Virus record (IMG/VR): IMGVR_UViG_3300028840_005911
Span: 64,001 to 128,000 of that record
Direction: 5' to 3' (one strand)
Length of the DNA: 64,000 bases
From: a virus
Shown here: piece after piece, positions 30,796 to 31,187 of the stretch
Layout of the letters: each line of letters begins with the position of its first letter
How positions within the stretch are numbered: the first letter of the stretch is position 1
The notes under the pieces: model-generated
Told to the model about the DNA's origin: nothing
Databases searched by the model: none
The model's input: the letters and a program-made list of their open reading frames with translations, nothing else
Position numbers and translations under genes: made by a program

Positions 30796-31187
30796 ATGGG
30801 AGCGTGTTTCGCTCCTTCGCATTGAGCTGGTCCTGGAGTAGGTAACGGGTAACCGTGTGGCGCGCGACATGTCTACTCCAGGACCGCAAGACATTATCCC
30901 GGCCTTCGGCCGGTTTGATTGTGTTGTGGGTGGAATGTCGGGAGTATCGGACGCTTGAACGAATGTGGGAGAGTAAATCAGACAGGGGAGCAGGTTGATC
31001 GAAGAGAGGCAAGGGCGGTCGCCGGTATGAGTGTTCGCGGGTCTGGTAGCGAGAGGGTACGTTTGTCCGTGGTGCGGAATCATGGGGCGTTTGTCAAAAG
31101 GAAGGTACGAGCGTGAGTGGGAACATGCGTCTGCACGGTGGCCCGAGCGAAAGCTCGAGAAGAGGATACCCCCTATCCTCTTCTTAC
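30796..31187 (+). ncRNA. ncRNA: structured 5' domain, longest (GNNN)n array E, terminator
   Basis: GGTCCTGGAGTAG/CTACTCCAGGACC stem and CCGGCC-TTC-GGCCGG hairpin, then G at 53/62 in-phase positions 30913-31157. Confidence 0.85.

What the first reader, a model, noticed from the sequence alone, without database searches (positions are those of the whole stretch)
30796..31187. Array E: a dedicated 390-nt RNA with 62 GNNN units in a single phase
Promoter, then a structured leader (13-bp stem; GGCC-TTC-GGCC hairpin), 245 nt holding one phase (53/62 G, including 16 consecutive units GCAA GGGC GGTC GCCG GTAT GAGT GTTC GCGG GTCT GGTA GCGA GAGG GTAC GTTT GTCC GTGG), then a terminator. No credible ORF. 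This is the clearest leader-array-terminator architecture and the best construct for experiments.
Basis: seen in the sequence. Interest (0 to 1): 0.9.

Follow-up and report, generated by a model that had tools for sequence, protein, structure and literature searches.

The report
Phased G-every-fourth RNA beside phage Cas7-like protein
A 192-kb environmental phage makes a roughly 390-base non-coding RNA with a G at every fourth base, and such purine lattices recur next to one Cas7-like gene in otherwise unrelated phages, which points to an undescribed protein-RNA system outside CRISPR.

Summary
Window 30913-31160 has 53 of 62 in-phase G (54/63 for 30909-31160; off-phase G 0.265; binomial P 1e-22). 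It lies between a phage promoter, three leader hairpins and a terminator, and has no credible ORF. The 192-kb genome holds only five strong and two weak such tracts. All are on the + strand within 14 kb, and all lie in untranslated RNA just before terminators.

The triplets between the Gs are non-repetitive. They match nothing in the phage, and the tract folds no better than shuffles. Only the 4-nt lattice is constrained, and it keeps its phase across non-G units. That implies a periodic binder.

The gene at 19436-20692 is a PadR-like winged helix fused to a Cas7/Csm3-fold RAMP domain (AF2 pLDDT 85.6; VIA Z 10-12). It is predicted to assemble head-to-tail. The genome has no CRISPR array.

In ten other lineages that share only this gene, period-4 lattices lie beside or near it. 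They are G in L153, L157 and L159, and A in L160, L182 and L185, and the base follows the protein clade. Ten capsid relatives carry no lattice; the five of them searched also lack the gene.

Most likely the RNAs are tracks for a Cas7-like filament (confidence 0.55). A guide role for the triplets is unsupported. The same scan had noted these tracts on this genome, not on other DNA.

The parts
30747..30760 (.). Palindrome CAACAGGGCTGTTG, operator-like, just upstream of the promoter of RNA E
   Evidence: One of four exact CAACAGNNCTGTTG copies in the genome (30543, 30747, 31198, 32238), all next to GGTATAAG promoters or tracts.
30782..30790 (+). Promoter -10-like element GGTATAAGA of RNA E
   Evidence: One of 18 genomic copies of GGTATAAG, with consensus AAAAT-N~16-GGTATAAGAAnnnTG. 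The sigma-70 consensus scan does not flag it, so it is a phage-specific type. The transcription start near 30797 is inferred.
30799..30815 (+). 5' terminal hairpin GGAGCG-TGTTT-CGCTCC
   Evidence: Sequence; present in the MFE and centroid folds.
30829..30885 (+). Long leader hairpin: a perfect 13-bp stem (30829-30841 with 30873-30885) around a 31-nt loop
   Evidence: Sequence and fold.
30899..30922 (+). GC hairpin CCGGCC-TTC-GGCCGG followed by TTTGATTGTG; possible attenuator or end of a short leader RNA
   Evidence: Scored as terminator-like.
30909..31160 (+). Tract E: 63 GNNN units in one phase, 54 of them G, including 16 consecutive units at 31009-31072
   Evidence: Folds no better than shuffles (z 0.08). 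No Rfam match.
31157..31187 (+). Terminator hairpin GAGAAGAGGATA-CCCCC-TATCCTCTTCT-TAC; its 5' arm continues the G phase of the tract
   Evidence: Same purine-arm / pyrimidine-arm + TTAC form as terminators after ordinary genes of this phage; phase seen.
26901..27052 (+). Tract A: 33/38 G (core 31/35 at 26901-27040). Starts 20 nt after the stop of gene 26639-26881 and runs into a terminator
29610..29701 (+). Tract B: 21/23 G. Starts at the stop codon of gene 29258-29611; terminator at 29707-29735
30563..30710 (+). Tract C: 30/37 G (core 25/29 at 30563-30678). Follows a 47-aa membrane-peptide gene and a palindrome; the terminator's 5' arm GGAGGAGGGC is in phase
31997..32190 (+). Tract F: two phase blocks, 31997-32036 (10/10) and 32035-32190 (36/39), then a terminator ending about 32207
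18396..18467 (+). Weak tract: first 8 units all G, 12/18 overall. Starts 2 nt after the stop of the HTH + sigma region 4 gene 17500-18393, before a terminator
25176..25227 (+). Short tract, 12/13 G, in the 3' untranslated region after gene 24503-25027
19436..20692 (+). Gene for a 418-aa protein: PadR-like winged helix (about residues 11-118) plus a Cas7/Csm3-fold RAMP domain (about residues 147-360). Proposed binder of the tracts
   Evidence: Atlas structure match to PadR. A family of 114 representatives. AF2 pLDDT 85.6. Foldseek top 50 hits all Cas7-type, E about 2e-6. VIA Z 10-12. Csm5 profile hit E 0.033. Predicted head-to-tail trimer, ipSAE 0.65 against best control 0.00.

Best explanation
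Tract E is the body of a dedicated, untranslated phage RNA of about 390 nt. Its only constrained feature is a guanine at every fourth base, held in one register for 63 units.

It is the largest of seven such tracts in this phage. The other six sit in the 3' untranslated ends of neighbouring early/middle operons, directly upstream of their terminators.

I propose that the tracts are binding tracks for the phage's own 418-aa winged-helix + Cas7-like RAMP protein (19436-20692). The protein would polymerise head-to-tail along single-stranded RNA and read one purine per 4-nt step. This resembles a Cas7 backbone on a crRNA, but with a shorter register and no CRISPR repeat.

The tracts run in phase into the 5' arm of the terminator hairpins. 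The likeliest consequence of coating is therefore control of hairpin formation (read-through) and/or protection of the RNA 3' ends. RNA E, which has no gene, would act as a high-capacity scaffold or sponge for the protein.

Shown: the lattice, its rarity, its transcript-like setting, the fold of the protein, and the co-occurrence of lattice and gene across lineages.
Inferred: transcription, binding, the 4-nt step per subunit, and the regulatory outcome.
For: 1. The lattice is real and is held as a lattice. E has 54/63 in-phase G (P 1e-22). The phase survives every non-G unit. Only period 4 appears. The NNN triplets are non-repetitive, with 55 different units. They show no similarity or complementarity to the genome or to each other above shuffles. 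The tract has no structure beyond shuffles (z 0.08).

2. The setting is RNA-like. All tracts are on the sense strand, between a stop codon or promoter and a terminator. The terminator 5' arms of A, C, E and F are in phase with the tract.

3. The tracts are rare. There are five strong ones in 192 kb, all within 5.3 kb. Ten phage records related by capsid (about 28-54% identity) have none, and the gene was not found in the five of them searched for it. In 668 kb of control phage DNA, both strands, nothing scores above 12.

4. The protein has a Cas7/Csm3 fold. A trimer of its RAMP domain is predicted head-to-tail through two distinct surfaces (ipSAE 0.65; best of 3 controls 0.00; the mark was reached by 20 of 30 solved homo-pairs and 1 of 23 single chains; runs agree in at least 90% of contacts; partner pLDDT at least 79). 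This pass may come from likeness to solved Cas7 filaments.

5. Gene and lattice co-occur in lineages that share no other gene of this region:
- L153: four G tracts in 3'UTR gaps, one directly after the gene.
- L159: 25/28 G in the gene-free gap after the gene.
- L157: 9/9 G directly upstream.
- L185: 16/16 A starting 6 nt after the stop, and 43/54 A directly upstream.
- L160: 11/11 A after the gene.
- L182: 15/17 A.

6. Statistics on the gene-flanking gaps: Fisher combined P 4e-6 for G alone. Across four bases and ten lineages, p<=0.002 occurs only for G or A.

7. The lattice base follows the protein clade.
Against: - Every solved Cas7 backbone binds RNA with a 6-nt repeat, not 4 (established knowledge of type I, III, IV and VII complexes). 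The tracts show no 6- or 12-nt signal.
- In this phage no strong tract touches the gene itself. The nearest are a weak one 1 kb upstream and strong ones 6-11 kb downstream.
- L150 and L183 show no significant tract. L155 and L184 show only weak ones.
- The other loci cover only 8-21 kb each, and they were sampled because long contigs were available.
- No RNA data exist (see Tried and rejected), so transcription and RNA ends are inferred from motifs.
- The protein matches no Cas7 sequence model in Pfam, NCBIfam or PADLOC.
Confidence: 0.55

Rival explanations
1. The tracts are phased binding tracks for a different periodic binder. This could be a host RNA-binding protein, or another phage product such as the 49-aa arginine-rich peptide encoded at 31808-31957. 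The Cas7-like gene would then be an unrelated neighbour.
For: No tract abuts the Cas7-like gene in this phage. An Arg-rich small ORF with a strong ribosome-binding site lies 40 nt upstream of tract F. Four nucleotides per subunit is known for other single-strand binders, for example Ff gene V protein and Rad52-type annealing proteins (my own knowledge, not tested here). It is not known for Cas7.
Against: The Cas7-like gene is the only gene of this region shared with the other lattice-bearing loci. In those loci the tracts lie in the gaps that flank it. The lattice base tracks the protein's phylogeny.
Confidence: 0.2
2. One reading: the tracts are guide RNAs. G is a protein-held punctuation base, and the three bases between Gs pair with a target nucleic acid, giving an RNA-guided effector with 4-nt punctuation.
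For: The protein has the fold of crRNA-binding Cas7 subunits. The variable NNN content differs in every tract, as spacers do.
Against: There is no complementarity to the phage genome above shuffled controls. The genome has no repeats, no processing handle and no CRISPR array; the hairpin is a generic terminator. Six of the seven tracts are the tails of mRNAs rather than separate RNAs. Three-base segments interrupted every fourth base would pair weakly. No nuclease or Cas10/Cas11-like partner was found among the neighbours searched. The host genome is unknown, so host targets could not be searched.
Confidence: 0.07
3. The signal acts on DNA or during transcription rather than as an RNA track. 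For example, G on the non-template strand every 4 nt could tune RNA polymerase pausing before terminators, promote R-loops near a replication origin, or mark sites for a DNA-modifying enzyme.
For: The tracts cluster just before the point at about 33 kb where gene orientation and GC skew flip, next to a 630-bp gene-free G-rich stretch. All lie immediately upstream of terminators. G-rich RNA on a C-rich template favours stable hybrids (established knowledge).
Against: Duplex DNA and RNA polymerase have no 4-nt register, and G-richness alone would serve these purposes. The exact phase kept over 252 nt, and the use of A instead of G in other lineages, argue for base-specific reading by a periodic protein. 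The tracts travel with an RNA-binding-fold gene across unrelated phages.
Confidence: 0.1
4. The region encodes protein, either the 145-aa minus-strand ORF 30769-31206 or plus-strand ORFs, or it is read by unconventional four-base decoding.
For: A 145-aa ORF spans the whole unit on the minus strand, and minus-strand frames are nearly stop-free over every tract. The phage carries an odd tRNA-like gene with a 12-nt anticodon loop.
Against: A period of 4 cannot come from triplet coding. The open minus frames follow from a C every fourth base and from C depletion on the + strand, and they occur in all three frames. There is no promoter or ribosome-binding site for them. Read as quadruplets, tracts A and C contain TGAG and TGAC units, and 55 different quadruplets would need as many decoders.
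Confidence: 0.02

Closest known systems
Cas7 (Csm3/Cmr4/Csf2) backbone filaments of class 1 CRISPR effectors, including the type IV-B Csf2 filament that assembles on non-CRISPR cellular RNA (PMC7937560)
   Same: The RAMP domain has the same fold (Z 10-12, Foldseek E about 2e-6). It is predicted to assemble head-to-tail with open ends. The proposed activity is coating of a single-stranded RNA with one subunit per fixed number of bases. Type IV-B shows that a Cas7-like filament can use RNA that is not a crRNA.
   Different: The genome has no CRISPR array and no cas neighbours. The protein is fused to a PadR-like winged helix and is phage-encoded. The RNA carries a sequence-coded register of 4 nt with a specific purine, whereas Cas7 backbones have a 6-nt repeat with no base requirement. 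Most tracts are the 3' ends of mRNAs. The protein matches no Cas7 sequence model.
TRAP (trp RNA-binding attenuation protein) and its (G/U)AG repeat tracks in Bacillus leaders
   Same: A multi-subunit protein reads one short motif per subunit along an otherwise non-conserved, unstructured RNA placed next to a terminator, and so decides whether the hairpin forms (established knowledge). This is the functional analogy I propose.
   Different: TRAP is a closed 11-mer ring reading 9-11 triplets with flexible 2-3 nt spacers in 5' leaders. Here the register is exact, the motif is a single purine, tract length ranges from about 13 to 63 units (an open polymer), the position is 3' of genes, and the fold is unrelated.
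Nucleoprotein-phased single-base motifs in RNA viruses: the tobacco mosaic virus assembly origin (G every third base) and paramyxovirus/filovirus promoter element 2, (CNNNNN)3 / (UNNNNN)8 (PMC6380270, PMC7643936)
   Same: One specified base recurs at exactly the number of nucleotides held by one subunit of a helical protein coat, while the bases in between are free. This is the only known kind of signal that looks like these tracts.
   Different: Those motifs are 3-8 units long, have periods of 3 or 6, lie in RNA virus genomes and serve encapsidation or polymerase entry. Here there are up to 63 units of period 4 in transcripts of a dsDNA phage.
Protein-sponge non-coding RNAs such as CsrB/RsmZ
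   Same: A dedicated RNA without an ORF carries many copies of the same protein-binding motif that also occurs in mRNAs. This is the proposed role of RNA E relative to the six mRNA-borne tracts.
   Different: The Csr motifs (GGA) sit in hairpin loops at irregular spacing and bind dimers, not a phased polymer.

Membership tests
Cas7 / RAMP superfamily (Csm3-Cmr4-like), for the protein 19436-20692 | RRM-like RAMP fold with a glycine-rich loop | tested here: met
   The AF2 model has pLDDT 85.6. The Foldseek top 50 hits are all Csm3, type VII Cas7, Cas7-11 or Cmr4 (E about 2e-6, target-normalised TM 0.5-0.6). VIA Z is 10-12 over model residues 149-360 and nearly the whole of Csm3. The family keeps a conserved S-P-x-R-G...G loop. 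The motif 'G-ivIhsdvvrGwfRt' aligns with Csm5 'yIPGSSLKGALRT'.
Cas7 / RAMP superfamily (Csm3-Cmr4-like), for the protein 19436-20692 | Recognised by curated Cas7/RAMP sequence models | tested here: not met
   No hit in Pfam, NCBIfam, PHROGs or PADLOC for this protein, or in Pfam for 38 family members. The only sequence signal is a profile hit to Csm5 chains at E 0.033-0.17.
Cas7 / RAMP superfamily (Csm3-Cmr4-like), for the protein 19436-20692 | Head-to-tail filament along RNA with a 6-nt repeat | tested here: inconclusive
   A trimer of residues 140-385 is predicted head-to-tail (ipSAE 0.65, best control 0.00), possibly by likeness to solved filaments. RNA could not be modelled. The candidate RNA has a 4-nt register, not 6.
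CRISPR-Cas system (class 1 effector module) | Repeat-spacer CRISPR array that supplies the RNA | tested here: not met
   No 18-mer recurs at CRISPR-like spacing anywhere in the 192-kb genome. The tracts have no repeats.
CRISPR-Cas system (class 1 effector module) | Partner cas genes (Cas5, Cas6, Cas10/Cas8, Cas11) next to cas7 | tested here: not met
   Neighbours at 15.9-29.3 kb have no Cas hits in Pfam, NCBIfam or PADLOC. The other loci share no gene but this one. A genome-wide search with cas models was not run.
Known RNA families (Rfam 15) | Match to a curated covariance model | tested here: not met
   At gathering thresholds the whole window gives only two tRNA matches. A permissive scan of 26500-32500 gives nothing relevant.
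TRAP-type attenuation tracks | 9-11 (G/U)AG triplets with 2-3 nt spacers in a 5' leader, read by a TRAP ring | tested here: not met
   The motif is a single G at exactly 4 nt, with 13-63 units, 3' of genes. The presence of a TRAP-fold gene was not tested.
Intrinsic (factor-independent) terminator, for 31157-31187 | GC-containing hairpin followed by a U-rich tail at the end of a transcription unit | tested here: inconclusive
   There is a 12/11-nt stem, a 5-nt loop and a tail CTTCTTAC. The same form recurs after ordinary genes of the phage. The simple consensus scan does not flag it, because the T-run is interrupted by C. No RNA 3'-end data exist.

The most novel reading that the evidence does not exclude
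A widespread but unnoticed family of phage proteins has taken the Cas7 backbone fold out of CRISPR. It uses the fold to build filaments on RNAs whose only code is a purine every fourth base. The base (G or A) is matched to the protein clade. The phage attaches this code to the ends of its own messages, and to a dedicated RNA, in order to switch terminators or stabilise transcripts. This would be a new class of sequence-phased ribonucleoprotein and a new kind of cis-regulatory RNA element. It could serve as a programmable, length-defined protein scaffold on RNA.
Probability: 0.4. Interest if true: 0.92.

Novelty: categorically new. Interest (0 to 1): 0.86.

Why it matters
Long, non-repetitive RNAs whose sole constraint is one base in a strict 4-nt register have not, as far as I could find, been described in phages or bacteria. 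Repeat finders, CRISPR finders, covariance models and ORF callers all miss them.

Their link to a stand-alone Cas7-fold protein suggests that the RNA-coating backbone of CRISPR effectors has a second life in phage gene regulation or RNA protection. Alternatively, such proteins may resemble what Cas7 evolved from.

The apparent co-variation of lattice base with protein clade gives a direct experimental handle on specificity. An RNA-templated filament of programmable length would also be a useful tool.

If the link fails, the lattice still demands some periodic binder with a 4-nt step, which would itself be unknown.

Tried and rejected
- **Exact (GNNN)x17 scan of IMG/VR**. It says nothing about how common the tracts are.
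- **Searches for close relatives.** Single-protein pattern searches for neighbours 31264-31773 and 27147-27854 found nothing. Neither did blastn of 26-33 kb, nor tblastn of the 759-aa and 418-aa proteins, all against GenBank phages.
- **YfaP-like and DNA polymerase hits** are too widespread to define relatives.
- **The one hit in relative G004** is Gly/Ala-rich coding sequence.
- **First structure model**, from a two-sequence alignment, was unusable (pLDDT 41.5).
- **Contig of homologue P0002** could not be read: no DNA was available.
- **Further searches for family loci.** IMG/VR with alignments A3 and A4 failed or found none. JGI gave one locus.
- **Sequencing runs.** No RNA holder is listed; only two DNA holders appear (sediment and seawater metagenomes), and these may be the source samples.
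- **No reverse transcriptase** in the genome, so retron/DRT-type readings were dropped.
- **DGR-type origin** from a (GAAA)n template was rejected: there is no A-rich period-4 tract in the genome.
- **Special 3' handle** was rejected: the hairpin is the phage's general terminator.
- **Duplication origin of the tracts** was rejected: they show no similarity to one another above shuffles.
- **Earlier notes of this scan.** Look-ups by words, relatives and sequence found the tracts noted only on this same genome.

Full report
**Source.** The window is bases 64001-128000 of a 192,446-bp IMG/VR virus record with direct terminal repeats. The same DNA is held by a sediment and a seawater metagenome run. 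Its major capsid protein has over 130 relatives at about 50-59% identity, several on 185-200 kb contigs. No GenBank phage is close.

**The observation.** In 30796-31187 one of the four phases holds 61 of 98 G against 25-28 in the others.
For 30909-31160 it is 54/63, with off-phase G 0.265 and binomial P 1e-22.
- Sixteen consecutive units lie at 31009-31072.
- The spectrum has only period 4 and its harmonic.
- A scan of the whole genome, all four bases, finds five strong tracts. All are G, all on the + strand, and all lie at window 26889-32204. None appears at period 5.
- A finer scan adds 25176-25227 and shows that tract F has two phase blocks. A weak tract lies at 18396-18467.

**What is and is not constrained.**
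- The units are diverse: 55 different GNNN words among 173.
- The tracts resemble neither each other nor anything else in the genome on either strand above shuffled controls.
- Tract E alone folds no better than shuffles (z 0.08). The whole RNA reaches z -1.8 only through its leader hairpins and terminator.
- When a unit lacks G, the phase is still kept in the following units. This behaviour is that of a lattice, not of mere G-richness.
- No frame gives a coherent ORF. The nearly stop-free minus-strand frames, including the 145-aa ORF 30769-31206, occur in all three frames and follow from the composition.
- Rfam has no match.

**Setting.**
- The phage has a promoter-like consensus, AAAAT-N~16-GGTATAAGAAnnnTG, in 18 copies, mostly at window 16-32 kb.
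- It also has a general terminator form: a purine-rich arm, a loop, a pyrimidine-rich arm and TTAC. This form also follows ordinary late genes. The 3' hairpin of RNA E is therefore a generic terminator, not a special handle.
- Tracts A, B, C, F and the two weak ones lie between the stop codon of a real gene and such a terminator.
- E alone has its own promoter (30782-30790) and no gene. It starts with three hairpins. The last, with its T-rich tail, also scores as terminator-like.
- The 5' arms of the terminators of A, C, E and F continue the G phase.
- Palindromes CAACAGNNCTGTTG sit beside these promoters.

**The proposed partner.** The 418-aa product of 19436-20692 matches nothing in Pfam, NCBIfam, PHROGs or PADLOC.
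- The word-indexed search found one homologue. An exhaustive profile search found 114 cluster representatives with the same two-part layout.
- With a 38-sequence alignment, AlphaFold2 gave pLDDT 85.6.
- The N-terminal part is PadR-like.
- Residues 147-360 match Csm3, Cmr4, type VII and III-D Cas7 and Cas7-11. All of the top 50 Foldseek hits are of this type (E about 2e-6). VIA Z is 10-12 over nearly the whole of Csm3.
- The family profile weakly hits Csm5 chains, aligning the classic RAMP motif.
- Three copies of the RAMP domain are predicted to sit head-to-tail through two distinct surfaces. The score is ipSAE 0.65 against 0.00 for the best of three controls. The mark was reached by 20 of 30 solved homo-pairs and 1 of 23 single chains. 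The runs agree in at least 90% of contacts, and partner pLDDT is at least 79. Solved Cas7 filaments exist, so this pass may reflect likeness only.
- The genome has no CRISPR-like array and no reverse transcriptase.

**Comparative evidence.**
- Ten phage records related by capsid (G001-G010; about 28-54% identity) have no tract at 20 units with up to 3 mismatches. The one hit is coding sequence. G001-G005, the five searched with the protein, also lack the gene.
- Control phage DNA (668 kb, both strands) gives three independent hits scoring 10 or more (a fourth listed row, L133, is the same DNA as one G004 hit). None scores above 12.
- I fetched contigs for ten other lineages of the protein family. 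tblastn shows that the Cas7-like gene is the only gene of window 14-33.5 kb found in any of the nine loci tested (no hit in L160, and L184 and L185 were not in that search).

| Locus | Lattice found |
|---|---|
| L153 | G tracts at about 11070-11210 (directly after the gene), 12420-12463 (11/11), 14101-14156 (14/14) and 16013-16150; each lies in a gap before a hairpin + T-run |
| L159 | 25/28 G at 11520-11631, in a 1054-nt gene-free gap after the gene |
| L157 | 9/9 G directly upstream of the gene |
| L185 | A instead of G, same period: 43/54 directly upstream, 16/16 starting 6 nt after the stop, 14/16 further on |
| L160 | 11/11 A after the gene |
| L182 | 15/17 A, about 4.6 kb downstream of the gene |
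| L155, L184 | Weak G tracts |
| L150, L183 | None significant |

- In locus-matched Markov simulations, the best tracts of L153 and L159 exceed all 60 simulations.
- A test restricted to the non-coding gaps flanking the gene gives p 0.0025 (L153), 0.0015 (L157), <=0.0005 (L159) and 0.03-0.06 (L184). The Fisher combined value is 4e-6 for G.
- Over four bases and ten lineages, p<=0.002 occurs only for G or A. Among periods 3-8, only 4 and its harmonic stand out.
- On a tree of 14 family proteins, L153, L159, L155 and L184 (all G) form one clade (95/97). Our phage groups with L157 (99/98). L185 and L182 (both A) are sisters (100/100).

**Interpretation.** A strict 4-nt register with free intervening bases, kept across exceptions, is what a periodic protein coat imprints. 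Known examples are the tobacco mosaic virus assembly origin (period 3) and the paramyxo/filovirus promoter element 2 (period 6; PMC6380270, PMC7643936).
- The only gene that travels with the lattice has the fold of the RNA-coating Cas7 backbone, and it is predicted to polymerise.
- I therefore take the tracts to be tracks for that protein (confidence 0.55).
- The 4-nt step differs from the 6-nt repeat of every solved Cas7 complex. That is the main objection. It would require the RNA to be held extended rather than pre-ordered for pairing.
- Because the tracts end in phase inside terminator stems, control of termination or of 3'-end stability is the likeliest output. RNA E would be a dedicated scaffold or sponge. 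This last step is inference only.

**Limits.** There are no RNA data. The host is unknown. Two lineages show nothing. Binding is not shown.

**Literature.** Full-text searches found no description of such tracts or of a phage winged-helix + Cas7 protein. The nearest case is the type IV-B Csf2 filament on non-CRISPR RNA (PMC7937560).

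Noticed in passing
window 23921-23998 (+): A tRNA-like gene (Rfam tRNA, 50.8 bits) has normal acceptor, D and T arms but a 12-nt anticodon loop, AATCTGAAACAT, between CCCGC and GCGGG. ARAGORN does not call it.
   Followed up: partly
window 30543-30556, 30747-30760, 31198-31211, 32238-32251; degenerate copy at 30134-30149: The palindrome CAACAGNNCTGTTG occurs only here in the genome, inside or beside GGTATAAG promoters. It looks like the operator of a dimeric repressor. The PadR-like domain of the Cas7-like protein is one candidate reader.
   Followed up: no
whole genome, mostly window 16-32 kb; also L150:7990-8010: A phage-specific promoter-like consensus, AAAAT-N~16-GGTATAAGAAnnnTG, occurs 18 times. 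The contig of the closest homologue of the Cas7-like protein carries the same GGTATAAG motif and a similar terminator.
   Followed up: partly
window 31808-31957 (+): A 49-aa ORF with a strong ribosome-binding site encodes an arginine-rich stretch (RWRYLRRPRRRPRRKRY). It lies 40 nt upstream of tract F and is a possible RNA-binding peptide.
   Followed up: no
window 32200-32830: A 630-bp gene-free, G-rich stretch with GGGTGTAT three times lies where gene orientation and GC skew flip. It ends in a bidirectional-looking terminator and could be a replication origin with iterons.
   Followed up: no
L185:3416-3631, 4771-4834, 4954-5017; L160:11436-11479; L182:10042-10109: In some lineages of the protein family the period-4 lattice is made of A instead of G. 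In L185 part of it is (AGNN)8.
   Followed up: partly
L159:11344-12398: The 1-kb gene-free stretch after the Cas7-like gene holds about four terminator-like motifs (cgcgagagg...tttt) with partial G lattices in different phases. It may be a string of small RNAs like RNA E.
   Followed up: no
window 40888-42888 (+): A 666-aa YfaP/DUF2135-like protein (phrog_1735, E 6e-255) is about 47% identical to proteins of Vibrio, Klebsiella and Clostridioides phages. It is clearly a horizontally shared gene.
   Followed up: partly
window 28551-29261 (+): A DUF5131 protein (weakly related to the radical-SAM 'mobile pair' proteins) matches the PADLOC candidate defence components PDC-M41B and PDC-M30B. It lies in the operon that ends in tract B.
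   Followed up: no
window 34367, 34782, 35161: The 18-mer CCTCCCTCGCCGCGCGTT is the only 18-mer present three or more times in the genome. It corresponds to the cassette junction element noted earlier on this genome.
   Followed up: no
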